Source: Rozella allomycis CSF55 (taxonomy: Eukaryota). Taken from it: a DNA stretch of 64,000 nt. Of the stretch, positions 11,812 to 58,521 are shown piece by piece. The DNA lies in the NCBI GenBank assembly GCA_000442015.1, contig KE560848.1, positions 157,389 to 221,388 on the forward strand, written 5' to 3'. Every line of letters starts with the position of its first letter. The first letter of the stretch is position 1. The translations under genes were made by a program, and so were the position numbers. The notes under the pieces were generated by a model. It was not told the DNA's origin. It saw only the letters and a program-made list of their open reading frames with translations, and did no database searches.

Positions 11812-11883
11812 TTCCGCATCGGGGAATCGAACCCCGGCCTTTGCGGTGAAAGCGCAAAATCCTAGCCACTAGACCAATGCGGA
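11812..11883 (-). tRNA. tRNA-Glu(TTC)
   Basis: Cloverleaf TCCGCAT...TTGCG-CT-TTC-AC-CGCAA...GGTTCGATTCCC; oligo-T terminator follows. Confidence 0.95.
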
Positions 11884-20621: not shown

Positions 20622-21444
20622 TTATTTGAGTGGTTTTAGACCAAGCTTAGCTCTCAATGCGTTGGTCTCTTCAATTGAAAGACTTTCTTTATCTTTCGTC
20701 TGAACAGAGTCGTCAGAAACAGGTAAATTCAGCTTCAATCTTTTCTTTGTCGAGTTTCCTTCATCGGAAAAATCTGATTCATTTGAATTTCTTTCATTAT
20801 CAAGTTCATCTTGAAGTAAACTGGTGCGAAAATTTAACTGACCTGTTTCCGCCAATACATGGCGTTTAACTATTCTCGGTAAAATAGTATCAAATGTTCT
20901 TTCTTGGGTCAACAGCTCATCAACAAACTCATCCATGTGTATAATTGTGTAGGATCTATCTATTTATACGGCTTCTTGTAACATTACCTTTGTTCCTTAA
21001 TCTTAACTTTCGATAATCCGCCAGCAACGGTTCTAATTCTCTATATATTTCCAAACCACTTCCAACAAGCCTCAAATAGAATACACCCAAGGCCCTAACA
21101 TACCTAAGTAATAGATTTCATATGTTGATACTTGTAATCGCCGTTCCTCACAAATTCGAACACTATGTCCTTTGTAGGTGCGAGTTGGAGCATTTTCAAA
21201 ACTAAGCATAAAAAAGGCGTTGGAATGTTTGTTCCAAAAAGGCCGCCAATATGATCTAATTTTACAGCCTTGTCAACTAATGTCTCGACTATTATAAACT
21301 ATGATTTTTCATACTGTTTAAACCAAAACAATTTTCTTTCCAATATTGCGACTCATATATCCTTGTTCTTGTTATTTTTTCAATCAAAAATTGAGGATCT
21401 ACACCATGCACTTGAAAAGCGTCAACTGCCGTTCTATTCGCCAT
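20622..21444 (-). CDS. PRP38: Pre-mRNA splicing factor 38
   Basis: MANRTAVDAFQVHGVDPQFLIEKITRTRIYESQYWKENCFGL; DYRKLR; HMDEFVDELL. Confidence 0.92.
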
Positions 21445-25739: not shown

Positions 25740-26016
25740 TGCTTTATTATCTTCCAATGTAATATTTTCCGAGCATCGCAATTAAATTCACAGTAATAAA
25801 TTGTTTTTTGTCTTTAACTAATTCACGAAATAGTCAGCAAAAAATATATATCGCAGATTTCTTATTTCTGTCATCTAAATATGTAAAGTAAAATGGGGAA
25901 TCATAACTCTACCATCAAACATGACATTTGCATTACGAGGACAAAACGGATTTTAAAGCAAGTTAAGGCTTTGAACCTGAAACCTGAACCTTATCTATTC
26001 TGGAAACTTTGGAATA

Positions 26017-26616
26017 ATGGAGAGTAATGATCCTCCGGATTATATAACTATCGTCGACGAAAAAACAAGCAAAAGAAGTTTTATTTGTCCTATATGTCAA
26101 GTTTCATTCCTTAGATCTAGCCATGCTAGACGACACATATTATCTATCCATTTCCCTGAAAAGCAACATGTTTGTAATATCTGCAATAGAAAATTCGCAC
26201 GAGCAGACAATTTACGGCAGCATTCAAAGATACATGAAGAGAATTTCGTCCCGAAAAAAGTTAAACGGAACGTTGAATGCACTCTTTGTGGTAAACACTT
26301 CCCCACGCCCTCTCACGTGATAAGGCATATGCGGATACACACAGGTGAAAAACCATTCGAGTGCGGTATTTGCAAAAAGCGATTTACAAGGAAAGATAAT
26401 CTCAATCAACACGAAAAAATTCATTTTCGAGATAATCCAAGGTCACATTTTTCTAAGGAGCTTGAAATTGCGCTTTCGGCTACTCATTCTGACCCATTGC
26501 CTTTATCCAGTCATCAAAGTGATATGCATCCGGAACACTTAAAGACAGCGATGTGGAGCCAACAAGTGTTAAGCTCAGACAAAGAGTCCACTGTTTATAA
26601 TATTTTTGATGTTTAA
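26017..26616 (+). CDS. C2H2 zinc-finger transcription factor (4 fingers)
   Basis: Four CxxC..H..H fingers with HTGEKPFEC linker. Confidence 0.9.
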   Translation: MESNDPPDYITIVDEKTSKRSFICPICQVSFLRSSHARRHILSIHFPEKQHVCNICNRKFARADNLRQHSKIHEENFVPKKVKRNVECTLCGKHFPTPSHVIRHMRIHTGEKPFECGICKKRFTRKDNLNQHEKIHFRDNPRSHFSKELEIALSATHSDPLPLSSHQSDMHPEHLKTAMWSQQVLSSDKESTVYNIFDV

Positions 26617-26631
26617 ATTAAATAAATTTAT

Positions 26632-27216
26632 TTATAGGATTTTTTTCTTGATTGCATTTACATCGTAGGGAATGAACTTTAGTTCCTTTTTCCTATTCTT
26701 ATACTTTATTGGTACATTTCGAGGAATCTTTTCAATTTCAAAATCGGAACTAACTGGGGCACCTGAATAGGACTTTCTTCTTGAGTAGTACATATTTTTG
26801 TTGCACTTGGCGGGCTTCGAATTGTGGGACTTGGAAGGCAAAAAGGGTGGGGGAAGTTGCAATGACTGTTGTGAAAAATTAAAAGACATAAGCATAGGCT
26901 CTTCAAAAGAACGTGTCTCGTCGGACATTATAGAACTAGCGGAACCTTCCCTAGTCAATGTAGGGGTAGATCTTGGGGATATTAGAAAGGAACTATTCAG
27001 TTTCTCTAAAGCATTAAAGGGTTCTGAAAGTTCAGGACAGGAAGAGCGTCGTATTTGGATGTGCATATCATCCGATTTTGAATTAATGGACAACGGTGAA
27101 ACAGCAGGTGGAGTCATTAACATTGGAAACGCATCTTGAATAGGAGATTGTCCTTTTTCTTGTGCAATGGACACCGAGGCAAGGAGGTATAACGGGTTGA
27201 GGTCTACGGTGTTCAT
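26632..27216 (-). CDS. Ser/Pro-rich hypothetical protein
   Basis: 194-aa ORF with AATAAA-like end; no family recognised. Confidence 0.6.
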   Translation of the reverse strand: MNTVDLNPLYLLASVSIAQEKGQSPIQDAFPMLMTPPAVSPLSINSKSDDMHIQIRRSSCPELSEPFNALEKLNSSFLISPRSTPTLTREGSASSIMSDETRSFEEPMLMSFNFSQQSLQLPPPFLPSKSHNSKPAKCNKNMYYSRRKSYSGAPVSSDFEIEKIPRNVPIKYKNRKKELKFIPYDVNAIKKKIL

Positions 27217-27438
27217 TACTGCTTAATTGATTGGTATTGTTACCAAGCCACTAACATATTTGCCTCTTTAGGATCCTTGACAGCGGAGTTATAATAGTAA
27301 TAGAAGAATAAAGTTGGACAGATATGTGTAAAAAAATTAACTTTTATGCATAATCTAAACAATTAATCATGGAAATGCTTAATATCATTTCATATCTTAC
27401 AATAAGCCACAATTGTGGACGAAAAATAGAATAAAGGA

Positions 27439-28401
27439 ATGGAAAATCTCCCTAAAAAAATCACCACTTCGTTGGTCTGTGAGGCCCCCTTTATAATACC
27501 AGATGTAATAAAAAACAGCGCGTGTCTTGTGGGAGTTGACGAAGCAGGCCGAGGTAAATTAATTTAGAGTATCAAATAATAGGACCTGTGTTAGGTAAAA
27601 TTTCTAGACAAAGTTTATAGGTCCTATGGTCTATTCCGTATTCGTTTGTGCCTTGGATGAGGAAGAAAGCTTGAAGCAACAGCCATTTGCAGACTCCAAG
27701 ACTCTTTCTGAAAAAGAAAGAGATGATATTTACAACAACTGTGTAGAAAATGAGTCATCAAAATTCTGGTGGGTTGTTAAAGTCTTAACACCCCAAGACA
27801 TTTCAAACTCCATGCTTCGAAGGTCCAAATATAATTTAAACGAATTATCGCATGATACAGTAATAGAATTATTTCGATATTTAATATCAAAAGGGATCAA
27901 TGTTAAAAAAGTAAAATTTTAATGTTCAATATACTGAAGGCATTTGTTGACACCGTTGGTGGTCCGGAATCGTACGAAAAGAAACTTTCATCATTTTTTC
28001 CAAACATTAAAATAACGGTTTCAAAAAAAGCTGATAGCATTTATCCCATTGTTTCAGGCGCTTCCATCGTAGCTAAAGTTACCAGGGATTACGTTCTTAA
28101 AAATTGGGTTATGAGAGAAAAAACACAAGTTTCGGACTTGTATGGAAGTGGCTATCCCGGGGACCCTAAAACCATTCAGTGGCTTCACGATTCAATGAAC
28201 CCTCTCTTTGGATTTCCGGATATTATTAGATTCAGCTGGGCAACGACCGCGAAATTATTGGATGAAAAATGCATCAAGGTTGAATGGCCACCCATTGAAG
28301 AGAATGAACCAAAAAAGAAAAAAGTGAAATCCACTGTGGTACAAATGGAAAAGTCTTATGAAGATCCCTTTCATGAATTTCTTGGTCTTTCCTTTACATA
28401 A
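27439..28401 (+). CDS. RNH201: Ribonuclease H2 catalytic subunit A
   Basis: GVDEAGRGPVLGPMV, DSKTL, FVDTVG, KADSIYPIVSGASIVAKVTRD, GSGYPGDP. Confidence 0.95.
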
Positions 28402-28429
28402 ATTTATTCAAAACTCTTTATTTGCTTTT

Positions 28430-29008
28430 TTACTCTTCATCATCTGTAAAATCATCAAAGTCGTCTTCATCTAAGCCATCCAATGACGTTTTCTTTTGAA
28501 ATTTTTCAACTAATTCTTTAAGTTCTTCTTCTGAAGTTATTTTTTCTTTCTGTCGCAAGAAAGACCTTTTGTCCCGCTCTTTTAATGAACATTCGAAATT
28601 TAGGGGAATCACGCTATCTTCTTCAAGTCTTTATTATACAAATAATATGTTTTACAATTCATTTTGCTCAAATCTCTCTAAACATTTGGCACAGATCTCT
28701 AGTTTAATCGAGCAATCTAGACATGCGACATGGTATGCCTCTTTCACTTTCTTCTCTTCACATTTAACACTACTAGAAGAAATAATTTATATATACCATT
28801 TCTTTGGAACACTCAAAGGCTTATATTTTCTATACTGCTTTCTCCACTCAATGATTTCACGACATCTTTCACAAACACCTTGCACCGGCAAGTTCAATAT
28901 TATTTTTGTAAGTTTACTGTTCCTGTTATGCTTAAATGCCGTAGTGTTTTTGTGCCTCTGAGACTTTTTCGAGTTATCTCCTTTCCGTGTAGAAATTTTT
29001 TCTACCAT
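28430..29008 (-). CDS. C9orf85/DUF2039-like Cys-rich protein
   Basis: QRHKNTTAFKHN...GVCERCREIIEWRKQYRKYKPL...AYHVAC..C. Confidence 0.8.
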
Positions 29009-29101
29009 ACCACAATACAAGGGTTAAAAAAATAACAAATTCAGATAAAATAATATATTTAAATAAATTGTTGCTCAATGCATTTTATAAGAGGTTAAAA
29101 A

Positions 29102-29112
29102 TTCCCGCCAAA
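29102..29112 (+). promoter_or_regulatory. E2F-consensus-like site TTCCCGCCAAA
   Basis: Exact sequence 4 nt before ATG 29117 in an otherwise AT-rich spacer. Confidence 0.4.
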
Positions 29113-29116
29113 TTTT

Positions 29117-30170
29117 ATGAAAAATACAAGAAAAAATGGCCAAAGCTCACTCTTTAATTTTGTAACGTAAAGACGTGAAAACATTATGATAGACCGAAGG
29201 ATAATATTTCGTACACATCAATGTCAAATTCATATAAACGAAATGTGTAAATCTTCTTGATTTTTAATAAAAAAGGCAAGAAGACGTATCCAATGATTTA
29301 ATAGAAAATATAATATCCGACTCTGAAGATGATGATCATGTATCAATGTTGAGCAGCTTGTTCAGCGCCTCTAAAAAGCTCAAACGAAAGAATCTTATCG
29401 TTTCTTCAAGCCCCGTGCGTGATATTCTTAAAGAAACATTGCAGTCGTCATCTAAAACGAATATACCTTTGGTGGACTTGTCAAATGATTTTTCAGACCA
29501 AGAAGAAATGACTCTTATTGACAAACCGATAAATTTAATGGATGATAATAAAGAAAACCACCAAAGTGAGTCCACTCCAACTTTAAGATTTATGAATGAA
29601 GCCATTCCTGAGAGTGATAATTTATCAGAAATTATCATTAAAAGTCCTATTCTTGGTCCCGAGTCTGTTATTCCGGGAACAGAACCTAATTTTTATGAGC
29701 GTAATTCTAGTCCGATACGTGGAGACGCCCACGAATTGAATTTCAAGACCCAAGGAATAGATACAACTCAAATTGATGAGTCTACGAAATTTTCTCTTTT
29801 AGATGAAGAAGATGAAGATAAAACACAAATCCCTCCAACTGATTACACACAAGAAGATAAACACGAATGCCCTTACTTTATAGAATCATGTACACAAGAC
29901 GATTATTATACAAGTTACTACCAAAAAGAAGAACCTTTATCACCCTTGCGAAGTTTTACTTCAGTGTCAACAATTCTCAATAACCCCCAAAGGTTTAGGG
30001 AATTGTCCTACATTTGCGGCCGTTTATCAAAAACAAAAGAATGTGAAGCAATCGATGCCGACGAATTTGTAAAAGAAGTGAACAAAAAAGCTTCTAGAGC
30101 ACAAAACTTCAAGGGTGGCAACAGTGGATGGAAAAAAAGACCCTTTAACAAGTTTAGAAAAAGAAAGTAG
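29117..30170 (+). CDS. Hypothetical acidic, disordered protein with basic C-terminal NLS-like tail
   Basis: MKNTRKNGQSSLFNF joined through 26- and 29-nt introns to the 274-aa ORF ending KKRPFNKFRKRK. Confidence 0.65.
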
Positions 30171-30312
30171 AATCCCGCAAAATAATTCAATTAAATACAA
30201 ATTATATATATATGAACAAATAAATGCATTAAAGTTTGTATCTTTTAATTTAGATTTAATCAATTACCGATGCTTCAACCTTCCAATGTCCCTGGTAAAT
30301 GGTAAATGGCAT

Positions 30313-31598
30313 CATGTCTAAACATTTCCCCTCTTCTTCTTCAATGTCTTTCTACATTAAGAAGACGAAATCTTTATATGTTTCTCTGATATGCCTTTAC
30401 CTTTCAATAAGCATCCTTCTCCTTACTAATTATAGTAATAACGAACCATATACTTCAAATGTGAAAATCCAGTCTCGAGAATGCAAAGTTCTCAATAATA
30501 CTATAATCCCTCAGCATTCATGTAATTGGAATGTGCTTGTTGAATCCGATGGCGATTTGTACAGATTCGATGACAATATCTGNATTTATAAATCGAAATA
30601 CTTTTATTTGCATATTATACGGCAATAATGTCTACATTGCAAATGAGTTTTATCAACGAATTCAGATCAAGTAATTTTGTATTTCTACTTTTAAAGATTG
30701 ATTTACGCTGGTTTGATACCTCTGCTTTTTCTTATATTGGCTTTAACGTCTATGCATTACTTTTTATGCTCTTTGTTTCCCATAATCTATTCGAAAAGAA
30801 TGTTCCACCATACTAAATGCAGAAATTGTTTATCAGATATTATAACAAATGCCGTAACCACGAATTATTATTCTTCGTATCACCTTGATTGCTTCTTGAG
30901 TGAAGTAGACCTTGCTGAGCATGATGTTAGCCAGCGTAAGCTATGTTTTTAGTCTGCCTTTAGTCATTGAATATTTTATCGCTAATGGGGAAACTTTGGA
31001 AGATGAAGTAACTATAATTTTAAGGTTAGAAAACAACATTATAACAATCAAGCCAAAAGAAATGACGATACAAGTGCAGAGCTGGCCATTGCACACATTT
31101 AAACCTCTTGAGTTTTCAAAATGGTTATTAATATTTAATTCATTATTTATTTGCATTAAGCCCATCTTTTTCACTATTCATCAGCTTTCAATATTTTTAG
31201 TTCCATTGATGTTTTACCTTTTCTTCTATATATATCAATGGAATAGAAAATTAGAGTGCATTTTTCAATTTCAAGGCAATGATCGCAACTCCTCCAAGAC
31301 GATTTTCCAGTCATCCAAGTTTCCAGCCCTTGTTTCGGATCAGAGAAAATCTGATAATAATACTACCACTTGGTTTTTCAGAAGAAGACAAGATTCATGT
31401 TTTAGCAATCTCATTTATTTGGATGTATTTTATGAAAATAGATGGCAATTGGTGGCTTCATCGTTCTCATTTTATTCTTTATCTTTAGTGGAGCATTTGA
31501 CATTAGTCATGTTGAAGTTAAGTGAAAATTGTGAATCTTACAAATATCTCTTGAATAGTCACTCTTTTCCCGAAATAAATGACGTTGAATTTGTTTAA
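30313..31598 (+). CDS. Hypothetical multipass membrane protein (N at 30583; exon structure uncertain)
   Basis: Hydrophobic segments in successive ORFs linked by GT-AG micro-introns. Confidence 0.45.
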
Positions 31599-31627
31599 AT
31601 TTCTCACTTAGATTTTGATTTTTCGTT

Positions 31628-32062
31628 ATGCAAGAAGAGCTTCAGACTATTGTTTCTTCATATCAAGACCTTCAAAAGGGTTCCTTATTTCTTGAATTTA
31701 AATTTAGAGTCAAATAAAGCGATTTCTACGAGAGAAAAACTGGAAGCGCAACTAAGAGAAAATGAAGCCGTTTTGGCAGTATGAATTTTAAGTAATTTAC
31801 ACCAGGAATTAAAGTTGATCAAAGATGGGAATAAAGTTTTTAAAATTGTCGGACCAGTTTTGATTGATCAGGAGCTGGATGAGGCGAAAACGACCATTTC
31901 TAAAAGATTAGAATTTATTAACAAAGAAATCAAAAGAGCTGAAGGCGTTATTAAAACTGTGCAAAAGAAACAACAAGATACAGCTGCTAAGGTAAGGCGA
32001 TGTCTTCAAAAGAATAGTTAATGGAATTACAAAAGAAACAGCAACAAGGAAGTCAAAAGTAA
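31628..32062 (+). CDS. YKE2: Prefoldin subunit 6
   Basis: KLEAQLRENEAV..EL...VFKIVGPVLIDQELDEAKTTISKRLEFI. Confidence 0.9.
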
Positions 32063-32079
32063 TGTAAAAATAAATCTAT

Positions 32080-32764
32080 TTATGTACTTTCCAATAACTT
32101 TTGCCGTTCTATAACCATTTGATCGAATTTAATGAGGTATGTTGTCCGATTAGGGAACCCTTCAATGGGGACTGTATGGGCACTAACTTTACAAGGCTAA
32201 TTATGAATCAATAGAACGTTTTTACAAAATTAGCTCCTTCCAAAATAGATTCAATAATTCCAGCCATGATAGCTCCACAATTTAATTGATGCAAGTCTTT
32301 GGGCATAGAAATAAATCTATGAGTCCAGGGATCATTGTCGGTGATCATATCTATTGTCTAAGCATAAACCACAATACATTCGTCTTCATTTTCTGTACTT
32401 TTTTCCAGTGAATCCGCCGGTTTACCACTTAGGCTCTTCCAGATCAGCGTATTTATAAATGACAATAGTGGTATAATCCTGTTTTCTCTTCTAATGGTGA
32501 GTTTATCTCGCCAGTAGAAAATTTCAATGTACCTGATACCAATATTTTTGCCAAAGTTATTCAAACTAATGAGTTACGACAAATATTTATACCGTTTTTC
32601 GAAATCTTGAATGCCACTTACACGTTTCTGAACATACTGAACCATTTCAGAAAATAGAAACGCGTACGATGAAAGATTCACCTCTTAAAAATTAATACGC
32701 TGATTACTTCATTCTTGCTTGTTTTATTGATAGGCCTTTCCAACAATTTAAGACTTCTGTCCAT
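32080..32764 (-). CDS. TRS31: TRAPP subunit Trs31/TRAPPC5
   Basis: [51 protein letters not shown]. Confidence 0.92.
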
Positions 32765-32798
32765 CAATGAATAGGAACAAACCAAGCCCCACATTTCC

Positions 32799-33233
32799 AT
32801 GTCATCAATTAGTCCTGTCAGGTTAGCACAACTTCATGCTTTGAGATGCAAAGTCCGACAAGAAATTAATTGGCAAGAGTTAAATCCTAATGGTATTAGA
32901 ACAGGAGAAAGATTTATTTGTCGAAATTTGCTGGGGAGGTATGTTAATCATTTTCATCCAGCGTATGCACCGCATGCTAATAAAAATTTCAAAAATGTAT
33001 GGATGAATTACTCGCCACCGGAAGAGGACTTATTGCCAGAAGAAAACGTTGCATTGGCAAAGAGGAAACTGGCAGAGACTGATTACACAAATTTACCTCA
33101 CGATTTACATCAAATAGTCAAACTTAATAGGGAAAGAAGGTTTGAATTAAGAGGAAAAGGGATTTTTCGATTTCCCGTAGGTAATTGATACCATCTGACT
33201 TGTAAAATAGGTGAAAAGAGAAAAAAGAAATAA
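32799..33233 (+). CDS. RSM27: Mitochondrial ribosomal small subunit mS33/Rsm27-like
   Basis: RL..L.C.V....LNPNGIRTGERF..RNL.G..V..F.P and late RGKG. Confidence 0.6.
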
Positions 33234-33305
33234 AAACTGATTTCATAAATGTTATTGTTTGATTGAAAAAGAAATAAAATTAAAATCATAAATTGTTCTC
33301 GTTTA

Positions 33306-34553
33306 TTAGTACCCTTGATTAGCCCATTGTGCCGCGGCTGCTTGTTGTTGAATATTCCAGGCCACAGCATGATAATCAGCATAGTAACTGTTTGGATCAT
33401 AACTCCCAATGGCATCATCGCCACCGTAAGGCATAAGAGTTGGATCCCATTGAATCGGTTGAGACATCTGATGCCAGGGGGCTTGGCTTGTTTGATTTTG
33501 AGAAATGTTAATGACTTGCTTTTCCTCTTCTTTAGTTCCCAACTCATTTAAAAATGACGCATATTCACGGTCTATTTGTTGACTCTTTTGAATGTACTGT
33601 GGATCATTTCTATGAACGCAATCCTTGGACAGGTGTCCGACGCTGCCACATATGCGACAAGCCACATTGCCGGCGACGGTACTTCTTTCTGGACATTCAA
33701 AACGACGGTGCCCGGCCATTCCACAATTGGAACAAACAATATCATTCTCAGCTTCACGTGCTCCACCATTGATAATAGCCAATTTTCTAAGCTGAATCTT
33801 TTTCAACTCTGTGTCTCCAACAGACGCAGACGAAGAAATAATTCTTAGAACCATTTTAGCGGCCTTTGCCACCTTATCTTCAGTATCCGCAGTTATGTAA
33901 CAATGTAAATCATCGTCGTCATCATCTTCAGGGCGAACTTTGCCTGAATATTAGAAATTTTATTATCAAACCTTCTTTGTGAGATCCTTTTCCTCTAATG
34001 GATAGTTTAGCACCACTGGCATTTTCCATGTCCTTCAACGTGGTACCTCTTGGTCCAATCAGTAATCCAATAAAATTTATTTCAGGATAATCTTTAGCAG
34101 GAATATAAATGCGATCAGAGCTATTTAATGGGCAAAAGATGTAATACCTGACTCCTTTTCTATCCTGGTTAAATTCAGGGTGATTTCTAACTGCGTCATC
34201 AACAAGTTTTCTTCTTTCAGTTTCCAATTTTTGCCTTTGTCTTGCTTCTCTAGTGTTTATGCGTCTTCCGTGTTCATCAAAAACTGGTTCCGGTGAAGGT
34301 GAACGTGCACGAATATGTGGCAGTTCCCTAGTTCTAAGCTTGTGCTGTATTTCCCTTTTAAAAAATAATATATAAAGTACTCCATTCTGTAAAAGAAACA
34401 ATACGCTTCTAGTTGCGACTTTGTCAAATTTGTTGGTAAAATGGTTGGATACTTGTCAAAAAGAGTACTCTTTTCAAGAATAAACTTGTTTTTTCGTTTT
34501 CTACTCTTTGTTTCTTCCACTGGTTGGTCTTCAAATCTTCTTCTTCTTTGCAT
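33306..34553 (-). CDS. MSL5: Branchpoint-bridging protein SF1/BBP
   Basis: RSPSPEP, NTREAR, KH domain YPEINFIGLLIGPRGTTLK, two CCHC knuckles. Confidence 0.95.
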
Positions 34554-34679
34554 CGTTCGTGAAATTTCCCCAAATGGGCAGCAAGAGTTTTTATAACTTA
34601 AACAACAACTTGGATGTATAAGAGAATAAAAAATAAAAATAAAATTATACCCGCTTAAAGGTTTATGTTAAATTTTTAT

Positions 34680-36070
34680 TTATGCATGCTTTGATTCTAA
34701 CGCGTCAGGGTGAGACGGAAAAATAATTTCCAACAATTTTTGCTTCATATTTGCAATATTGTCACGTTCGGGACTGTTAAAGAATTATTGAAAGTGTTAC
34801 TGATAATGATTGAACTGAAAATTGTTATCTCCTACAGGGTGAAAAAAATGAGGTTGGTATTCAACATCTTCGGCTTCTCTTAACTTGCGCTGTTCTCTTT
34901 GGACGTTTTCTATTAAAGTTTTCTCATTGGTGGCTGCGTCGTAATCCTTTCTCAATAGAGACGAAGTGACTTTGCTCCAAAGTCTATTATCTAATTTAAA
35001 GAAAGAGCATTTACCTTCTTGATTCGTTTTCTGATTGTTTTTCTTCATCTTGGACGATTTTAGGTTGAATCCTGCTTTCCGCGGAACTGAAAAATATTTC
35101 CTTGGAAATTTCAGTTTTCCCTTCCATCTTGTGAAGATAAATGACGTCAGTCCATTTTCCGCTTATTTGATAAATAACTTTTCCTTCTTTATTTTTAATT
35201 TTCCCCTGAATAGCATTGTGAGATCCAGAGAAAAACCCCTGTGATTTTTGACGCGTAAATTTACTTTTGTTTTAAACTCAATCTCACAGCAGAGTCCAGT
35301 GGCTTCGCATTTGATCGTCGCATTGTCCCCAAGTTCCATGCTCATAGTCCCAAAAAGAATGCCCCTAGCATACATGTTCGGCATTGTAATCACATAAACT
35401 TCATTGGGTATATTTCCAAAGTAAATATAGGATTCCCCATTCATCAAACTAGCCGCCTATAAAGACATCAATCATGAACATACTGAATTCCCTAAAAATT
35501 TAGATTTTGGTTTAACATTTCCAGTTATTACTAAATTCCTATCCGGGTTCGCGTAAAAGTAGGTTGAAACTGGCGGATGATGAGAGCACTGCTCGGCTAA
35601 ATAAAACGCACTGCTTCCGTCTTCCAACTTGTATTTGCATCGAAAAATTTCCCCCAAAACGGGATTGTACGGCTTTTTAACACCCTTTGAGAATATGTGT
35701 GCATTGGACTTACCTTTTTTTATTAGTACAAAAATATCTCACCTTTGGCCTAATATGCCATCCAGATAGAAAATAACGAACAACTTGGATAAATCTTTGT
35801 ATCGGATCTTGCTCAACCGATGTGCTTAACAATACCCACACATAATATTTACTTTAACAAGAATTCAGGATGTGACATAAAATCTGTTATACGCTCTAGC
35901 ATTGATCGTGGCTCTAGGATAAATACAGGCAATGTAACACGATGCAAATCCATCCCTTTGCTCAATTGCGATATAATACCAAGCAGAATGCTTTTTGGCT
36001 CATCATCTAAAACTTCGTCGATACTCTTAAAAGATTCCGATGCAGTATCGTTTTCTTTACCAGAAGACAT
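34680..36070 (-). CDS. OSH6: Oxysterol-binding protein homolog, Osh6/Osh7 type
   Basis: DLHRVTLPVFILEPRSMLER, SGWHIRPK|GVKKPYNPVLGE, EQCSHHPP, KSKFLGNS, ARGILFG. Confidence 0.9.
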
Positions 36071-36176
36071 TTCTAACCGTCGTGGCGTAGTAACAGAGTG
36101 CAATTCAACAAAAACGAAGATGAAAAATAAAGTGTTAATAGAGATCAATATTAAATTTTTATTCATATCATATTTC

Positions 36177-37148
36177 TTACCAAAAGTGGAAACTAGCCTT
36201 TTCTGTTTCACTTTCGTCCTTGTACCCGGAATCAACAACCTTGGGGAAAGCGCAATTAGGGAATGAAAGCGTTCTTGGTATTGTGCTCACATTAGGATAT
36301 TCTTTTTTATTTTTTTGCGCAAGCTTCATTTCAGATCTTGAGCGCTTCAAGTTTGGATCTGGAGTTAATGTTTTCAATCCAGCGAAATCACGATTTCTTT
36401 TTTTAATTACATCTGATTTCAAATGCGACGGCCTGTGGCGCCCATGGAGTTTAAAATATAGTCCGCATGCATTGCAATACTGAGCACCATCCAATTTCCT
36501 CCACAGCGGAGTTTTATCAGTCTGGCAGTTTTGACAAACAACTACAAGCTTATGTTCAAGAGGCCTTTGCTCTGTTAATTGTAAATGAATGTTATGGATA
36601 GGAAAAAATGGATCGTTATCTCTTATAGCATTTGGGGGTGACTGGAAGTCTGGTTCTACCAATCGTGCTTTTTCTAATGAAATTGGTGGAATGTCGAAAT
36701 CAATTGGATATTCAATATCACATTTGTTATCTGAAACCTTGTCCAAGCAAATCATGTCCATCCATAGATTCTCATTGTCAAATATGGGCTTTTTACTTTC
36801 AACTGGAAATGATTTTTCCGACAATTTCCCTTTTCCTTTCTGAGTTTTTTCAATTACTATTGGCTCAGGCTTCATGATTGTTATAGGCGTCTTTTCTATT
36901 AGTGCAACCTTCTCCGCACATATGTCACTGAGAGATCGTTTGCTGTTATCTTTGTAATACCATAAACGCCAAGACAGGTTTTCGAAACGGCTTCCATCTG
37001 GCAAGTGATGCTTCACTTTGGTAAATACTTTCCAAGACTCTGACAAATCTTCTATTGAGTTGAAGGAACGAAAAGAATCGAATCCTTGTATGGTCAAGGT
37101 GACTGGAGACATGATCTGGGGAAGAGATAAGACAAGGGGTTTAGACAT
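36177..37148 (-). CDS. AreA/Gat1-type GATA factor with DUF1752 N-terminal domain
   Basis: WKVFTKVK..LPDGSRFENLSWRLW; CQNC-x16-CNAC GLYFKLHG..RP..LKSDVIKKRNR. Confidence 0.85.
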   Translation of the reverse strand: MSKPLVLSLPQIMSPVTLTIQGFDSFRSFNSIEDLSESWKVFTKVKHHLPDGSRFENLSWRLWYYKDNSKRSLSDICAEKVALIEKTPITIMKPEPIVIEKTQKGKGKLSEKSFPVESKKPIFDNENLWMDMICLDKVSDNKCDIEYPIDFDIPPISLEKARLVEPDFQSPPNAIRDNDPFFPIHNIHLQLTEQRPLEHKLVVVCQNCQTDKTPLWRKLDGAQYCNACGLYFKLHGRHRPSHLKSDVIKKRNRDFAGLKTLTPDPNLKRSRSEMKLAQKNKKEYPNVSTIPRTLSFPNCAFPKVVDSGYKDESETEKASFHFW

Positions 37149-37204
37149 GGTGTTTGGGTCATGTGAAATAAACACTAAAAATTGTTATTAATGTATACAA
37201 GAAT

Positions 37205-40014
37205 TTATTTTGGTGAAAAAACAATATCCACTACCTGCTGTAGTCTTTCGTAGTCTTTATGCATGGTATCATCTATTGTGTCTAGTTTTTTATCTCTGTT
37301 TTGCATATTCTTCAATTGATCTTGACTCTTTTCGGACAAGGTGCGATCTACTTTTTGATTCATTCTTTCAAATTCCAAACGTAATTTCTTTTCTGCAAAG
37401 AGGTCTTTACGAAGTTGATCCAGTTTTTCTTCTAGAAGTGTTTTTAATCTGATTGTTTCTTCTAATTCCTTGCGAACTAAATCTAAATCGTTGGCTATAA
37501 TATTGTTGGCCTCTCTAAACTGGGCGTTGGAATTCGAAAGTTTCTTAATTTCCTCTTTTAGATCTGAAACTTTGTTTGAAAGTGTGTTGACCAGGTTCTC
37601 TCTGGCCTGTGACAGCAATTTATGATCTTTTTCCATAGCCGCTTTCGAAGTTTGCGATTGATTATAAAGATCAGTCACTTGATCTAAGCCCGATTGTAGT
37701 TCATTATTTTGTTTGATCAAGTTATTCTTTTCCTTGACAAGTTCTTCTCTTTGGATTGAAAGATTATGAAAGTCCATTCTCAATTTCTTGAAATCCAATT
37801 CAGTTTCGTTATTTTGAAGAGTCAAGTTATCATGCTGTAAGATAAGATTTAAATGTGTTTCATTCAATGCTTGATGCTGATTGGTTAATTCTGCATGCTG
37901 GGCACGTAACTCTGATTGATCTGATCTCAAACGTGAAATAGTTTCCTCCAGGCCTTTAATTTTATTGGTAGAGGTATTTTGATAGTCTTTATATTCCAAA
38001 TGCAATGCATTATATTCTTCTTTTTTCTCTTTCAGCTCTTGACGTACATCATACACATGTTTGGTCAGGGCAATTTTATCATTTGTAAGTCCAGTCTTGA
38101 CCTCATTGAGTCTGTCTACTTCATTCTTAAAAGTCAGCTTCAGTTCTGTGTAATCTCGTTTGAATCTTTCTATTTCAACTAACAGCATTCTATTCTGTGA
38201 CATTTCCCTGTCCAATGCTGTTTGAGCTTCATTTAATTGCGACATCGCTTTTTCTCTCTTTTCTTGGTGAATCAAGGCATCATTTTCGGCTATTCTAACT
38301 TTTTCTTCAAGATCGATGATAATTTTATCATTATTCACAGCTTCATTTCTTCTTACTTCGTGAAGCTCCCTTACAGTGGAATCCAATAGATCATGCCGCT
38401 GAGTCATTTCTTTCAATGAAACTTTTAATCGAGCATTTTCAGAGGTAAACTTTTGAATTGTCGCGTCGTCTTCCTTTTTTACACTTTGAAGGATTGCAAT
38501 TTGTTTTCGAAGGTCATGAATTTGTACTTCGCTTTGTGAAAAACTTGTTTTGAATGACTCTGTATTATCGTTTAATTTCTTTTCTAATTCCTCTATTTTT
38601 GCCTTATCCAACAACTGCTTATCCATAAACTTTTGTATTTCAGTTTGTATTTGAAACAAATCTTGATGCAGCTGTTCATTTTCTTGATTATATTCATCTT
38701 TTTGAGAGTTAGACATGTTTAAATTTGCTACCAATAGCTCCATTTCCTCTTCAATCCCTTTCAATTTTTTCTGTGTTGCATTCGATTTTTCCATCACGTC
38801 ATTGTATTCTTTGGTCAATCGCTCCAAATTTCTTTGCAAAATGTTATTCCGTTGCTCCGCTTGTTCATTTCCTATTTCCGCTTGTCTTGCCATTGATGCT
38901 ATCTTTTCGTTTAGCTTTATGTAATCTTTCAATGAATCATGAAGCTTTGTTCTTGTATCCACAACTTGCTTCTCCAAATCTTTTATTTGATTTTCTTTCT
39001 GCATAACTTCCCTTTCCTTATCACCTATAACATTCCTCAGCTAAATAATGATCCATATTTCCATCTTACGTCTTTCTTTTCCGCTTCGGCATGGATTAGA
39101 CACGCCATTAATACTGACATTTCTTTTTTTAAAGTTCTGATGTCATGTTGGAGCAGACTTGCTTCCTTTTCTTGCCATTCCTCGGCTTTTATATAGTACT
39201 GCATGGATTTCGACAAGGCTTTACGAAGCTTCCTCACGTTTTCGACCTCCTTTTGTTCTGATTCTGTCTTTTCAAGAAGCATTTCTCTCAATCTTCCAAT
39301 TTCAGATGACTTTAATTGCAAAACATGCTTGTAAAGGTTCCCAGAAAAGGTTTCTTCGTGCGCTTGAAGTGAGCCAATGTTGTTTTCTGATAAATTAGCC
39401 TGCTCGAATACACTCTTTATAGTATCGATTTGATGCTTTTCGATGATTTTAGTCAACTTCCTAGCTCTTAAATCTCTTGCAATTTTTTCTCCTGGATCGG
39501 TATAGAATAGATTTTTGGGCTCGACTGGATCCTTTAAAAGCTCAAAAAAGGGCGGATGATTTTTACGCTTAGCATCAGACACTTCATCAATATCATTTGG
39601 ACTTGGAAGTTCTTTGCTCTGACTTTCCAAACAATGAGAATAGACATGCATCAATTCCTTTTGACAAGACTCGCAAACAATCTCAGAATAGTTGGATGTT
39701 AAAGATTTATGTTTCAAATGTAGTGTTCCTTGAATGTGGGTTTCATTTAGTTTATTTTCTTTAATAACTGGAAGTGCTCTATCTTTAACAGAAACTCCGC
39801 CATCAGGGGCGCTTCCCACTTTATGAAATTCATTGGTAATATTGTTAACTAAGGGTTCAAGCAAGACACCGTTCATGCTCTTTCTGGGTCTTTTACTCAT
39901 TCCATCCTGTGACGTTAACGAGTCCGCTTTACTACTTTTTGGGAAAAAATCTGGAGAATTGGTTGGTTTGGTCTGAAAATTAAGTGAGCCTTGTGGTACT
40001 TTCAATTCCGACAT
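37205..40014 (-). CDS. Long coiled-coil protein (about 920 aa), function unknown
   Basis: Two ORFs joined by a 29-nt intron; heptad-rich E/K/L/Q sequence. Confidence 0.75.
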
Positions 40015-40191
40015 TTTCGTTGCAGCAAAATTTGAGGTTGTCAAGGGACAGTAAAGGTAGAAATTATTTGTAATCCATGGATTTATTAAAAAATGTTTAT
40101 CAATGGCTTGACTTTAAGTGAATAATCGAGTAACTAGAATCCTCGTTTCAAATTGAAAAGATCTCTTAATCAAAATTAGGAAAAATCTGAA

Positions 40192-43100
40192 ATGGCGGAA
40201 AATCAACAACAGCGTGATGAAGAGAGTAATACACCGCAAACAAAGGATAACATTCCGAAAATAGGATACTTTGAACTGTATCGTTATGCTAGTTCTTTTG
40301 AAAAGACTATGATATTGGTTGGTATTCTATTTTCTTTTGCAAGTGGTACAATTTGCTGTATTGATAAATATTAGGATCATCTCTACCAATAATGACAAAA
40401 TTATTTGGAGGCATAATAAAAGTGTTTGGAACGTATGAAATGACTAGAAACAAGGACCAATTCAATAATGATGTCATTGTTTACTGTATCTATTTTGTGA
40501 TCCTTGGAGGTGCCAGTTTTGTTGTATCCTATTTATCAATGGTGCTTACATAATCATGAATTAATTAAGGCTGTTTTCATGTACACTGGGGAGAGACAAG
40601 TCCGCAGAATAAGAGAGAAATACTTTTCATCATTGTTGCAACAAGAAGTTGGTTGGTTTGACAAGCAAAACTCTGGAGAACTGGCAAGTCGTCTAAGCGG
40701 GTATCCGAATCTTATTAATTACAAATTAGTGACTTACAACTGATACAAGACGGTATATCTGAAAAAGTATCGATTGTTTTGGCATCAATGGCAACTTTTG
40801 TTGGCGGATTCATTGTGGCTTTTACCGAAGGTTAATTTTTTAACTTTTGTAAATATTAAGGTTGGCAATTGACATTAATCTTGTGTTGTGTCTTACCATT
40901 AATGGGCTTGACTGGCGCGATTATGGCAAAGTTTCTCTCTAAAGCTACTACTAATACACAGGACGCATTTGGAAAAGCAAGCGCTTTGGCTGAGGAGGTA
41001 TTTTCAGCTATTCGAACAGTTACATCATTTAATGGTCAAACAAGTGAAGTCAAAAGATATGACGCATGTTTGAATGAAGCTTTGAAACATAAAACGAAGC
41101 AGGCGAATATACAGGGGGTTGGGGTCGGCTTTATAACTTTATTTCTATTTTCGACCTATTCGCTTGCATTTTGGTATGGGAGCCAGCTCATTGAAAAGGG
41201 CGAATATGATGGAGGAAAGTTTATAACTGTATTTTTTGCCTTTATGATGGGTGCATTTTCAATTGGTAATGTGGCGCCTAACTTTGGAGCGTTTGGTTCT
41301 GCGCAAGGGGCTGCCTATAGAATATTTCAAGTTTTGGAACGAAAGCCTTTGATTGAAAAAAAGAAAGGCAAAGATTTGGAACAAGTTAAAGGTGAAATTG
41401 AATTTAGAAATGTTAAATTCAATTATCCAACAAGGCCTGAAGTTTCCATTTTGAAGGGAGTGAATTTGAAGATTAAACCAGGGCAAACCGTAGCTCTTGT
41501 AGGTAGTAGTGGATCTGGTAAAAAAATGTTTTGATTGATATAGGGAAATCAACGATGGTTCAACTAGTTCAAAGGTTTTATGATCCAATGGAGGGTCAAA
41601 TTTTGATTGATGGCCAAGATTTGAGGGATGTGAATTTGGAGTCCTTTCGCAGACATGTTGGCATTGTGAGTCAAGAGCCAATTCTGTTTAGAAATTCTAT
41701 AAAGAATAACATTGGCTTGGGGAAAATGAATTCATCGACGAAAGAGATAGAAGAGGCTGCATTACAAGCAAACGCTCTTGATTTTATTAATAAACTTCCA
41801 AAGGGATTTGATACCCTTGTTGGTGAAAGAGGCAGTTTAATGTCTGGCGGACAAAAGCAACGTATTGCCATCGCCCGTGCATTAATAAAAAACCCTTCAA
41901 TTTTACTGTTAGATGAGGCTACATCTGCACTTGATTCTGTTTCAGAAAAGGTTGTTCAATCAGCTCTTGATGGAGCTTCAAAAGGTAGAACGACCCTGGT
42001 AGTGGCTCATCGCTTATCAACGATTAAGAATGCAGATTTGATTGTAGTGATGCAACAAGGAGAGATTATAGAAACTGGCACTCATGAAGAATTGATAAAT
42101 AAAAAGGGCAAATATTATGAACTAGTAGAGGCACAATCGCTGCAGCAAGGGGATCAAGTTGCTACTGAAGCTGAAGAAATTATGCATTTAAAAGAGGAAG
42201 AAGAAACCAGACAAAGTTTAATAAAGCAAAAGGAAGAAGAAAAAGTTAAAGTTGAAAATAAAAAAGGGGATATTTGGAGGGTTTATAAAATGGCACTATC
42301 TGAATGGCATTTATTGTTAGTAGGGTTATTGGGGTCTATGGTATTGGGATCTATAATGCCCTTGTTTGGATTTGTTTTTGCAGAGATTTTAACAGTTTTC
42401 TTTTCATCTGACATGGTGAAACTTCGTAAAGATGCAGATTTTTGGTCTTTGATGTTTCTTTTGATAGCGATAGCATCATTCTTGGCGAATTACTTTAAAA
42501 TGGCGTTGTTTGATATTGCAGGGAATAGATTGACGTTGAGGATTAGATCGATGAGTTTTAAAGCCATGTTGAGTCAGAACATTGGATGGTTTGATGAAGA
42601 TAAGCATGCGACTGGAATTTTGACGTCCAAATTGAGTACAGAGGCTGAGTCGATCCAGGGTCTGACTGGAAGTTTTCTTGGAACGATTTTGCAGCTTGTT
42701 GCAACGATTGTTATTGGATTTATTATAGCATTTTCAAATAGTTGGCAACTAACTTTGGTTATTTTGTCGTGTCTTCCCCTTGTATCACTTGGCGGGTACC
42801 TTCAAGTGCGGGTGTTGAAAGGGTTTGATTCTAAAGCAAAGGCAATGTATGAAGATGCGAGTCAAGTGGCTACAGAAGCATTGGAGAACATTAGAACTGT
42901 GATTTCATTGTCCAGAGAAGGATATTTTGAACATGAATATCAAAGTGGATTGCAAGTCCCTTACAAGGTTGGTGTGACGAGAGCGTTCACGAGTAGTTTA
43001 GGACATGGGTTTGCACAATCAATTCAATTCTTTGCTTACACGTTGGCGTATTATTATGGATCGAGATTGATGATTGATGGAACGATTGATTTTTCAAATT

Positions 43101-44059
43101 TCAACAAAGTGGTGAACGCTGTAATGTTTACTGCTGCTTCTCTTGGCCAAATTGGATCTTTTGCACCAAATGCTTCCAAAGCTAAAATTGCCGCTGCAGA
43201 CATTTTTGAGATTATTGATAGAAAACCTTCAATTGACAATTCTGGAACAACAAACTTAGATAACCCTCAAGGCACAGCAGAGGTGAACAACGTCATTTTC
43301 AAATATCCCACAAGGCCTGATCAAATAATTTTAAATGGAATAAATCTTTCTGTGAAACAAGGACAAACCGTTGCTTTAGTTGGGGCTTCTGGGTGTGGAA
43401 AATCAACAATCATTCAACTGCTGGAAAGATTTTATGATCCTTTGGCTGGAAGTGTTTCTGTTGATGGAAATGATTTGAAATCTTTAAATTTATCTTCATT
43501 GAGAACTTGCATCTCATTGGTCAGTCAAGAAGTACGAAATTTCTCAATCTAAAAATAGCCTTTGCTTTTTGCTCGAACTTTAAGAGAAAATATATCTTAT
43601 GGGAAACAAGACGCGTCCATTGAAGAAATTAAAGATGCCGCAAAAGCTGCCAACATTGCAGACTTTATTGAATCTCTTCCTGATAAATATGAAACCCAGG
43701 CAGGTGAAAAAGGCACTCAATTAAGTGGCGGTCAAAAACAAAGAATTGCTATAGCACGTGCAGTAATGATTTTTATTGAAGTAAACTTCTAGTTGATCAG
43801 ACACCCTAAATTACTTTTGCTTGATGAGGCAACAAGCGCATTGGATACAGAATCTGAAAAAGTTGTTCAAGAGGCTCTGGACAACGCTTCCAAGGGTAGA
43901 ACTACAATTGTTATTGCTCATCGTCTTAGCACAATTCAAAACGCTGATGTCATTTATGTCTTCAAAGATGGATTGATTTTGGAAAAGGGTACTCATAGCC
44001 AACTTTTAGCCAACAAGTCGCTCTACTATGAGTTAGTCCAACAACAATCACTCAAATAA
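40192..44059 (+). CDS. MDR1: Full-length ABCB/MDR1 P-glycoprotein transporter
   Basis: Two TMD-NBD halves: [28 protein letters not shown] and [17 protein letters not shown]. Confidence 0.95.
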
Positions 44060-44179
44060 ATTTGATTTCTAATAATGTCTTACCTATTAATCATTGATCT
44101 CTAAACAATCATTGGTCATTAACATTTGTTTCAATTCTTGTCATTTTATTTCAGAAATTTCAGAAATTAACGAAAACAA

Positions 44180-46869: not shown

Positions 46870-46941
46870 TGCCTTCAGGGAGGATTGAACACCCGACCTC
46901 ATGTTTACAAGACATGCGCTCTACCACTGAGCTATGAAGGC
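46870..46941 (-). tRNA. tRNA-Thr(TGT)
   Basis: GCCTTCA...CATGT-CT-TGT-AA-ACATG...GTTCAATCC; T8 terminator. Confidence 0.95.
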
Positions 46942-52738: not shown

Positions 52739-52825
52739 CGTTGCTAGCTAAGTTTTCAATTTCATACAAAACAAATAGTCTTCAAATACCTAGTTTTCAA
52801 TTTGATACAAAATAAAACTTTAAAG

Positions 52826-52897
52826 TGCCCATACCCGGAATCGAACCGGGATATTAGCGGCCACAACGCTACGTACTAACCGTTATACTATATGAGC
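52826..52897 (-). tRNA. tRNA-His(GTG)
   Basis: GCTCATA...TAGCG-TT-GTG-GC-CGCTA...GGTTCGATTCC...TATGGGC-A. Confidence 0.95.
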
Positions 52898-58416: not shown

Positions 58417-58521
58417 TGTATTTCTGAAAAATACAGAATCTATTTGGTGCCTTACAAAAGAATTAAATGAATTGGTTATATGAAAGTGAATGTAATATAT
58501 TTTTATTCCCTTATGACAATT

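What the first reader, a model, noticed from the sequence alone, without database searches (positions are those of the whole stretch)
35685..35742. Two abutting 29-nt introns with a zero-length exon (recursive micro-intron splicing) in OSH6/7
Seen (minus strand): ...TGG CAT ATT AGG CCA AAG | GTGAGATATTTTTGTACTAATAAAAAAAG | GTAAGTCCAATGCACACATATTCTCAAAG | GGT GTT AAA AAG CCG. The family motif WHIxPK-GVKKPYNP needs all 58 nt removed, twice the local intron size. The span divides exactly into two 29-nt GT-AG units at an internal AG|GTAAGT, and the first unit has TACTAAT. Removing only one unit frameshifts. Known: recursive AG|GT ratchet points are described in very long animal introns, and fungal stwintrons are nested rather than serial. 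Inference: a length-restricted spliceosome removes longer introns in about 29-nt steps, which could also serve as a regulatory or NMD checkpoint.
Basis: partly seen in the sequence, partly recalled or inferred. Interest (0 to 1): 0.85.

Follow-up and report, generated by a model that had tools for sequence, protein, structure and literature searches.

The report
Two abutting tiny introns in OSH6
In a fungus whose introns are almost all 23-34 bases long, one 58-base gap in a lipid-transfer gene looks like two ordinary 29-base introns placed end to end with no exon between them, but no RNA data were available to show that they are cut out one after the other.

Summary
On the minus strand, 35742-35685 (58 nt) must be removed to join WHIRPK to GVKKPYNP. 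This junction is contiguous in 119 of 120 homologues. The span divides at AG|GTAAGT into 29 + 29 nt.

It is not an assembly artefact: DNA contigs from three runs bridge it with no indel.

My own gene finder predicts 120 introns in the window. Of these, 113 are 23-34 nt (mode 26). Every longer call dissolved on inspection, and this is the only zero-length exon.

Both halves have donor and acceptor scores inside the range of real introns. A random 58-nt intron gets such a central site in 1% of simulations, and 0.06% at the observed strength. In 35.6 kb of predicted exon, only one GT..AG segment scores as well.

A neighbouring RNase H2A gene has a 12-nt exon between 29- and 26-nt introns, so splice sites this close together are tolerated.

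My best reading is two abutting introns removed serially (about 0.6). The rival is one-step removal of a 58-nt intron (about 0.33). No RNA run holds this locus, so the pathway is untested.

Recursive splicing across a zero-nucleotide exon has already been shown in fungi, in 336-375-nt introns. This would be a miniature variant.

The parts
34680..36070 (-). Osh6/7-ORP5/8-type oxysterol-binding-protein gene; 7 coding exons and 7 introns of 28, 29, 29, 27, 26, 31 and 27 nt; 398 aa in my model
   Evidence: Model from my Viterbi gene finder, with exon ends read by eye. Homologues of exon 3 carry PF01237. The best solved-structure matches to exon 3 are ORP8 and Osh6, E about 2e-17 to 3e-17, against 2e-8 or weaker for ORP3/1/2, Kes1 and OSBP1.
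35743..35824 (-). Exon 2 (82 nt), ending ...GWHIRPK with the codon AAG
   Evidence: The motif runs straight into GVKKPYNP in the homologues.
35714..35742 (-). Unit 1: 29-nt GT-AG intron (GTGAGA ... TACTAAT ... AAAAAG)
   Evidence: Donor score 1.89 (41st percentile of 63 training introns) and acceptor 2.17 (76th percentile). Composition is typical of local introns (73rd percentile).
35722..35728 (-). TACTAAT branch-point-like heptamer in unit 1, with the branch A 9 nt before the unit's AG
   Evidence: Read. A motif of this kind (YTRAY) occurs in only 21 of 63 local introns, so it is a bonus rather than a requirement.
35713..35714 (-). Zero-length exon: the AG of unit 1 directly abuts the GT of unit 2 (AAAAAG|GTAAGT)
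   Evidence: This is the only zero-length exon among 120 predicted introns.
35685..35713 (-). Unit 2: 29-nt GT-AG intron (GTAAGT ... CTCAAAG)
   Evidence: Donor 1.89 and acceptor 1.18, both at the 41st percentile. The donor context is the same (AAG|GTAAGT) before and after removal of unit 1. Its composition is atypical (5th percentile, GC 0.38) but within range.
35484..35684 (-). Exon 3 (201 nt, 67 aa), starting GVKKPYNPVLGE and including the HHPP signature
27554..27620 (+). Comparator in the same window: RNase H2A gene with a 29-nt intron (27554-27582), a 12-nt micro-exon (27583-27594) and a 26-nt intron (27595-27620)
   Evidence: Against chain 8yjz_H, exon 1 ends at residue 38 (weak match, E 1.3, collinear) and exon 3 starts at residue 44 (E 8e-18). 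The five missing residues equal 1 + 12 + 2 nt.

Best explanation
The 58 nt are two separate minimal spliceosomal introns of 29 nt each that abut with no exon between them. Each has its own GT donor, A/T-rich tail and AG acceptor at the spacing this organism uses for essentially all of its introns. Each is therefore recognised across the intron and removed in its own splicing reaction. If unit 1 goes first (the likely co-transcriptional order), exon 2 (…AAG) is ligated to GTAAGT. This regenerates an identical AAG|GTAAGT donor, from which unit 2 is then removed; that is recursive splicing at a zero-nucleotide exon. If unit 2 goes first, unit 1 keeps an intact acceptor (AAAAAG|GGT) and is removed as an ordinary intron. 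Either order gives the conserved WHIRPK-GVKKPYNP junction, and either half-spliced form is frameshifted. The intron position is ancient, so the pair probably descends from one ancestral intron at this site. Shown here: the anatomy, the reality of the DNA, the local length regime, the improbability by chance, and the tolerance of splice sites 12 nt apart. Inferred: that the two units are actually excised separately, and in what order.
For: The sequence and frame are as described. The junction is contiguous in homologues: 119 of 120 carry the motif. DNA contigs of X1, X2 and X4 bridge the site with 0 gaps there, and X1's 6 differences all lie elsewhere. Of 120 predicted introns, 113 are 23-34 nt (26 nt: 38; 27: 18; 28: 22; 29: 18), and this is the only zero-length exon. 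Each longer prediction dissolved on inspection. Site scores for both units fall at the 41st-76th percentile of 63 training introns, which excluded this pair. The chance of a central AG|GT is 3.0%; with decent sites it is 1.0%; at the observed strength or better it is 0.057%. Only 1 GT..AG segment of 23-34 nt in 35,607 nt of predicted exon scores as well as unit 2, whereas 19 of 63 real introns do. So a unit like this is unlikely to be ignored. A 12-nt micro-exon lies between 29- and 26-nt introns in RNase H2A. The 58 nt have no stable fold that could shorten them: -5 kcal/mol, z 0.01. There is precedent in fungi for zero-nucleotide-exon recursion (10.1101/224170; 10.1101/226894).
Against: There are no RNA data: no listed run holds the locus as RNA, and the one RNA run laid gave only short 90-95% pieces elsewhere. 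It is one case in one window. Unit 2 is compositionally atypical (5th percentile) and has no YTRAY motif, although 42 of 63 real introns lack one too. Unit 1's GTG donor is a minority form locally. My intron catalogue comes from an ad hoc predictor that penalised introns over 36 nt and cannot see UTR introns, so the absence of long introns is partly built in. The flat-prior run did propose long introns, and I rejected them by eye using protein motifs partly recalled from memory. Introns at the same position in other fungi are 47-330 nt and single: 11 loci, 0 with an internal AGGT. So a 58-nt single intron is ordinary for fungi at large. In the microsporidian E. cuniculi, a 76-nt intron is spliced far better than the tiny ones (PMC6349667, passages read). 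Tiny-intron spliceosomes therefore need not have an upper length limit.
Confidence: 0.6

Rival explanations
1. It is a single 58-nt intron removed in one step from the outer GTGAGA donor to the outer CAAAG acceptor. It would be a relic of normal fungal intron size that escaped the shrinkage seen elsewhere in this genome. The central AG|GTAAGT would then be a coincidence or an unused cryptic site.
For: Introns at the same position in 11 metagenomic fungal loci are single and 47-330 nt long, three of them 47-51 nt. A longer intron is spliced well in another tiny-intron relative of fungi (PMC6349667). Unit 2 has atypical composition and no clear branch motif. A weak 5-bp pairing between the two ends of the 58 nt appears in the predicted fold.
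Against: At 58 nt it would be the only intron over 34 nt among about 113-120 in the window. The central site is expected in only 0.06-1% of random 58-nt introns. Equally intron-like segments are almost absent from exons, 1 in 35.6 kb, so the machinery would have to skip what looks like a standard intron. The end-to-end pairing is no better than in shuffles (z 0.01; 95 of 200 shuffles fold at least as well).
Confidence: 0.33
2. The tandem arrangement is a regulatory device. Incomplete removal of one unit yields frameshifted transcripts that are degraded, which tunes OSH6 output. This is the reader's checkpoint idea, and it is a subset of the two-intron reading.
For: Either half-spliced form is frameshifted and meets a premature stop (read). 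Lengths divisible by three are under-represented among local introns, 25 of 104. This pattern fits surveillance of retained introns; the link to surveillance is my own knowledge from other tiny-intron organisms.
Against: The same frameshift follows retention of any local intron whose length is not a multiple of three, so nothing is special about this pair. There are no expression data of any kind.
Confidence: 0.1
3. It is an assembly artefact, with two alternative alleles or reads concatenated.
For: None was found.
Against: Contigs from three DNA runs of three different studies span 35685-35742 inside pieces of 4.4-10 kb with no gap there. X1 may be the source of the window. For X2 and X4, 8 substitutions each were not displayed, so a base change cannot be excluded, but an indel can. 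The two halves are unlike each other (alignment score -8).
Confidence: 0.01

Closest known systems
Recursive splicing at zero-nucleotide exons (ratchet points) in Drosophila long introns
   Same: A 3' splice site is directly juxtaposed to a 5' splice site (AG|GTAAGT). The donor is regenerated after the first ligation, and one annotated intron is removed in pieces. I saw the abstract start of 10.1101/006163 in the listing (196 zero-nucleotide-exon ratchet points) and the listing of the review PMC5126111. Details of Ubx are recalled.
   Different: Those host introns are very long. Here the whole span is 58 nt and each piece is 29 nt. The Drosophila cases are backed by RNA evidence, and this one is not. 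Here both orders of removal are possible, because unit 1 has its own complete signals.
Fungal zero-nucleotide-exon recursion: C. neoformans BOT1 (375 nt = 210 + 165) and the S. pombe SPNCRNA.445 intron (336 nt)
   Same: [quoted passage not shown] In both, an intron longer than the species norm is split into smaller ones (10.1101/224170, passages read; 10.1101/226894, passages read).
   Different: Those were shown by spliceosome profiling (junctions, branches, intermediates). Their pieces are 165-210 nt in genomes with larger typical introns. Here the pieces are at the genome's minimal modal size and there are no RNA data. The supplementary tables of both papers, which may list more cases, were not seen.
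Stwintrons (spliceosomal twin introns) of filamentous fungi
   Same: Both are complex intervening sequences in fungal genes that need two consecutive splicing reactions (abstract starts of PMC8469720, PMC9024468 and PMC6616335, seen in the listing).
   Different: In a stwintron, an internal intron interrupts the donor, branch or acceptor element of the external intron, so the order is obligatory. Here all signals of both units are intact in the pre-mRNA, and the units are serial rather than nested.
Micro-exons flanked by tiny introns in the same genome (RNase H2A, 12-nt exon)
   Same: Two minimal introns (29 and 26 nt) lie almost back to back and must both be removed to restore an invariant protein motif.
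   Different: There, 12 nt of exon remain between the introns; in OSH6 none do.

Membership tests
Recursive splicing via a zero-nucleotide exon | A 3' splice site directly abuts a 5' splice site (AG|GT) inside a span that is wholly absent from the mRNA | tested here: met
   AAAAAG|GTAAGT at 35714/35713. All 58 nt must be absent.
Recursive splicing via a zero-nucleotide exon | A functional donor is regenerated when the upstream exon is ligated to the ratchet point | tested here: met
   Exon 2 ends in AAG, so the regenerated site is AAG|GTAAGT with the same score of 1.89 (41st percentile).
Recursive splicing via a zero-nucleotide exon | Intermediate junction reads and separate lariats for each piece | not testable with these tools
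   No RNA holder was listed. The one RNA run laid (X8) gave no contig on the gene.
Recursive splicing via a zero-nucleotide exon | The host intron is unusually long for the species | tested here: met
   58 nt against 23-34 nt for 113 of 120 predicted introns. In absolute terms it is tiny, unlike the animal cases.
Stwintron | An internal intron interrupts a donor, branch or acceptor element of an external intron, which forces a fixed order of excision | tested here: not met
   Both units carry uninterrupted GT...AG signals in the pre-mRNA, and the boundary lies between them.
Ordinary single intron of this genome | Length within the local range of 23-34 nt | tested here: not met
   The span is 58 nt. 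Each half is 29 nt, a length shared by 18 of the 120 predicted introns, a count that includes the two halves.
Oxysterol-binding protein family, Osh6/7-ORP5/8 branch (host gene) | OSBP domain with the HHPP signature, and closest to Osh6/ORP8 among solved structures | tested here: met
   Homologues of exon 3 carry PF01237. ORP8 gives E 1.6e-17 and Osh6 about 3e-17, against 2e-8 or weaker for other ORPs.

The most novel reading that the evidence does not exclude
Intron length in this fungus is effectively quantised. The spliceosome pairs a donor and an acceptor only across about 23-34 nt, with almost no branch-site information. Any longer intervening sequence can then persist only as a chain of abutting minimal introns removed serially. 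On this reading the OSH6 pair is an ancestral fungal intron that was rescued by fission into two 29-nt units.
Probability: 0.2. Interest if true: 0.8.

Novelty: new variant of a known kind. Interest (0 to 1): 0.52.

Why it matters
If the two units are indeed removed separately, this would be by far the smallest recursive-splicing substrate described. It would also be the first in a genome with ultra-short introns. That would turn a long-standing question into a one-locus experiment: do spliceosomes adapted to tiny introns have an upper as well as a lower length limit, that is, do they measure length? It would also show a route, intron fission or end-to-end stacking, by which an old intron survives genome-wide intron miniaturisation. 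On the practical side, gene finders with a hard intron-length window will break such genes unless zero-length exons are allowed. My own predictor did so until they were allowed.

Tried and rejected
- **RNA:** no RNA holder was listed. Run X8 (RNA) gave only short 90-95% pieces elsewhere in the 20-kb stretch and nothing on the gene. This says nothing about expression.
- **Second tandem candidate, 21071-21131 (-), 28 + 33 nt with TTAG|GTATGT:** rejected. The 33 nt are coding sequence of a PRP38-like protein, and only the 28-nt intron is real.
- **A second '58-nt intron' at 4642-4699 (+), or 28 + 9-nt exon + 21:** rejected. Reading on after the 28-nt intron gives the conserved lipid-kinase catalytic-loop region of a Vps34-like protein (model; the alternative model's protein was printed; the motif comparison is from memory). 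A Pfam check failed because I gave an out-of-frame reference, and I did not repeat it.
- **Other long predicted introns dissolved:**
  - 74 nt at 5935-6008 becomes 27 + a 26-nt exon + 26.
  - 147, 111 or 44 nt near 18.7 kb becomes a 28-nt intron plus a 26-nt GC-AG intron.
  - 42 or 84 nt at 31.6 kb is a gene end followed by the start of the next gene.
  - 65-117 nt in the phosphomannomutase gene become six introns of 25-29 nt.
  - 101 and 114 nt lie in an N-containing repeat gene.
- **Structure-mediated shortening of the 58 nt:** none.
- **Duplication or introner origin:** the units resemble neither each other nor other introns.
- **Close relatives for comparison:** the metagenome scan gave at most 69% identity over exon 3, and no tiny-intron relative was found.
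- **Organism:** it was not identified beyond an early-diverging fungus. A literature search on a guessed lineage gave nothing usable.
- **Searches for prior description of abutting or tandem tiny introns:** no listed title or abstract start addresses abutting or tandem tiny introns in tiny-intron organisms. In one search's 12 listed rows 'recursive splicing' scores 0 occurrences. This is not proof that it is unpublished.
- **Rfam:** the only matches in the window are three tRNAs.

Full report
**Observation.**
Exon 2 of an oxysterol-binding-protein gene ends ...TGG CAT ATT AGG CCA AAG at 35743. Two 29-nt stretches follow. The first begins GTGAGA, contains TACTAAT and ends AAAAAG (35742-35714). 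The second begins GTAAGT and ends CTCAAAG (35713-35685). Exon 3 then starts GGT GTT AAA AAG CCG at 35684.

The ATG is at 36070. The first two exons are 218 and 82 nt, so the gap is in phase 0. A 29-nt removal shifts the frame. Reading through both units meets a stop at the start of unit 2.

A search with exon 3 returned 120 listed homologues carrying PF01237, all of those with a source name being fungal. In 119 of the 120 the K[KR]P[YFL]NP motif was found. The 45 rows printed show the preceding ...SGWHI(K/R)PK running straight into GVKKPYNP. Two mis-modelled proteins and two truncated ones are the exceptions.

All 58 nt must therefore be absent from the mRNA.

**Is the DNA real?**
One sequencing-run search (after three unanswered tries) listed six DNA holders and no RNA holder. 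I laid X1 (possibly the source), X2, X4 and the RNA run X8 on 26001-46000.
- Single contigs of X1 (31365-37573), X2 (34482-38877) and X4 (27071-37177) cross the site.
- The only indel in any of them is an 11-nt insertion at the N at 30583.
- X1's six differences are all listed and lie elsewhere.
- For X2 and X4 no difference is listed inside 35685-35742, but eight of each contig's substitutions were not displayed.

The two halves are unlike each other. An assembler concatenation of alleles is therefore excluded.

**The local intron regime.**
No genome is held, so I wrote a small Viterbi gene finder. It uses codon log-odds trained on long ORFs, splice-site matrices and GT/GC-AG introns, and it allows zero-length exons.

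With a flat length prior it produced a tight cluster at 23-34 nt plus scattered long calls. With a penalty on introns over 36 nt, and matrices retrained on 63 introns that excluded the OSH pair, it predicted 120 introns. Of these, 113 are 23-34 nt (26 nt: 38; 27: 18; 28: 22; 29: 18). The rest are calls of 18, 19, 20, 21, 74, 101 and 114 nt.

I inspected every long or odd call:
- The 74-nt call is a 27-nt intron, a 26-nt exon and a 26-nt intron in a SCAI-like gene.
- The 101- and 114-nt calls lie in an N-containing tandem-repeat gene.
- A '58-nt' call at 4642-4699 is a 28-nt intron followed by coding sequence of a Vps34-like kinase.
- A '61-nt' call with an internal TTAG|GTATGT at 21071-21131 is a 28-nt intron followed by PRP38 coding sequence.
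- Long calls near 18.7 kb resolve into a 28-nt intron and a 26-nt GC-AG intron.
- The phosphomannomutase gene has six introns of 25-29 nt.

The protein motifs used in these judgements are partly from memory. The predictor's penalty favours short introns and it cannot see UTR introns. With those caveats, the OSH span is the only removal longer than 34 nt and the only zero-length exon in the window.

The branch site carries little information here. No position-specific signal appears upstream of the AG, and only 21 of 63 introns contain YTRAY. Length and the two ends must therefore do most of the work of recognition.

**Is the central site more than chance?**
- Unit 1 scores 1.89 (donor) and 2.17 (acceptor). 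Unit 2 scores 1.89 and 1.18. These fall at the 41st to 76th percentile of real introns.
- The unit 2 donor has the same AAG context before and after removal of unit 1. The unit 1 acceptor improves slightly after removal of unit 2.
- I simulated 200,000 58-nt introns with the real ends and a first-order Markov interior. A central AG|GT giving 23-35-nt halves arose in 3.0%. With both new sites at or above the 10th percentile it arose in 1.0%. At the observed strength or better it arose in 0.057%.
- Within 35,607 nt of predicted exon there are 1,033 GT..AG segments of 23-34 nt. Only one scores as well as unit 2, whereas 19 of 63 real introns do. This test is not fully independent, because the exons were defined with the same matrices.

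By local criteria each half is an ordinary intron, and such objects are almost never left in exons.

**Supporting context.**
- In the RNase H2A gene of the same window, a 29-nt intron, a 12-nt exon and a 26-nt intron occupy 67 nt. Against chain 8yjz_H, exon 1 ends at residue 38 (weak but collinear match) and exon 3 begins at residue 44 (E 8e-18). The five residues between equal 1 + 12 + 2 nt. The machinery therefore handles two minimal introns whose sites are 12 nt apart, and zero is the limit of that series.
- The 58-nt RNA has no fold better than shuffles: -5 kcal/mol, z 0.01. Structure does not shorten it.
- Neither unit resembles the other or any other intron. I see no sign of duplication or of a mobile introner.
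- Unit 2 is compositionally unusual (5th percentile, GC 0.38) but within range.

**Evolution.**
A metagenome scan with exon 3 gave 80 loci with at most 69% identity.
- In 42 the two motifs are contiguous; many of these are probably transcripts.
- In 11 a GT-AG intron of 47-330 nt sits at exactly this phase-0 position. None of the 11 contains an internal AGGT.
- In the remaining 27 the upstream motif was not found.

The position is therefore old and normally holds one intron. The tandem form is peculiar to this genome. Whether it arose by fission of the ancestral intron or by insertion of a second intron at the exon-intron boundary cannot be told.

**Mechanism and rivals.**
The best-supported reading is two abutting introns, each recognised across about 29 nt and removed in its own reaction.
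- Removal of unit 1 first regenerates AAG|GTAAGT. This is classical recursion.
- Removal of unit 2 first leaves unit 1 with an intact acceptor.
- Both orders give the conserved junction, and both intermediates are frameshifted.

I put this at about 0.6.

The main rival is one-step removal of a 58-nt relic intron, at about 0.33. Three things keep it alive. There are no RNA data. Single introns of 47-51 nt occupy the same position in other fungi. In E. cuniculi, a 76-nt intron is spliced far better than that organism's tiny introns (PMC6349667, passages). The last point argues that tiny-intron spliceosomes need not have an upper limit.

The regulatory or NMD idea has no specific support. Under-representation of lengths divisible by three (25 of 104) applies to all introns here.

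**Comparison with what is known.**
- Zero-nucleotide-exon recursion is established in Drosophila long introns (abstract start of 10.1101/006163 in the listing; review PMC5126111 seen only as a listing).
[quoted passage not shown] S. pombe has two instances, including the 336-nt SPNCRNA.445 intron (10.1101/226894, passages).
- Stwintrons are nested and have an obligatory order (abstract starts). The present case fails that definition.
- My searches for abutting or tandem tiny introns, or for recursion in tiny-intron organisms, listed nothing relevant among the rows shown. The passages I read of a 2026 paper on the shortest animal introns do not mention it either (PMC13644364).
- The supplementary tables of the profiling papers were not seen.

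**Verdict.**
It is best filed as a miniature variant of zero-nucleotide-exon recursive splicing, pending RNA evidence. The broader claim of a length-quantised spliceosome is attractive and testable, but here it rests on one locus.

Noticed in passing
whole window: This is a fungal genome (best ORP hits at 63-75% identity over exon 3, all named ones fungal) with ultra-short introns. 113 of 120 predicted introns are 23-34 nt with a mode of 26. The donor is GTAA/GTAT-like. There is almost no branch-point motif (YTRAY in 21 of 63). Lengths divisible by three are under-represented, 25 of 104.
   Followed up: partly
27554-27620 (+): A 12-nt micro-exon (27583-27594) in RNase H2A lies between 29- and 26-nt introns. 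It supplies part of the catalytic-site motif.
   Followed up: yes
18702-18727 (-): A 26-nt GC-AG intron (GCAAGA...ATATAG) lies in an importin/exportin-like gene. It is the only credible non-GT donor I saw (the protein-motif judgement is from memory).
   Followed up: partly
5935-6013 (+): A 26-nt exon (5962-5987) lies between a 27-nt and a 26-nt intron in a SCAI-like gene. A predictor with a flat length prior merges them into one 74-nt intron.
   Followed up: yes
58500-62200 (-): A large gene is built of tandemly repeated exon-intron units. Each repeat ends in a near-identical 26-nt intron (...TTTTGTTAG|ATGATG). The region contains four of the window's six N bases, so the gene models there are unreliable.
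   Followed up: no
33306-34553 (-) and 20622-21444 (-): Two splicing-factor genes lie in the window. One is an SF1/branch-point-binding-protein-like gene (KH domain plus zinc knuckles) immediately downstream of OSH6. The other is a PRP38-like gene. The branch-site reader is therefore retained even though the branch motif is degenerate (the names come from motifs I recognised, not from a family search).
   Followed up: no
30583 (+): The N at 30583 corresponds to an 11-nt insertion in the contigs of runs X1 and X4, with four nearby substitutions. The window seems to be slightly collapsed there.
   Followed up: no
11812-11883, 46870-46941, 52825-52897 (all -): Three tRNA genes (Glu-TTC, Thr-TGT, His-GTG) are the only Rfam matches in the window. 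No snRNA gene is present.
   Followed up: yes
35685-35742 (-): The first bases of unit 1 (UGAGA) can pair with UCUCA near the end of unit 2. This would bring the outer splice sites together, but the fold is no better than in shuffled sequence.
   Followed up: yes
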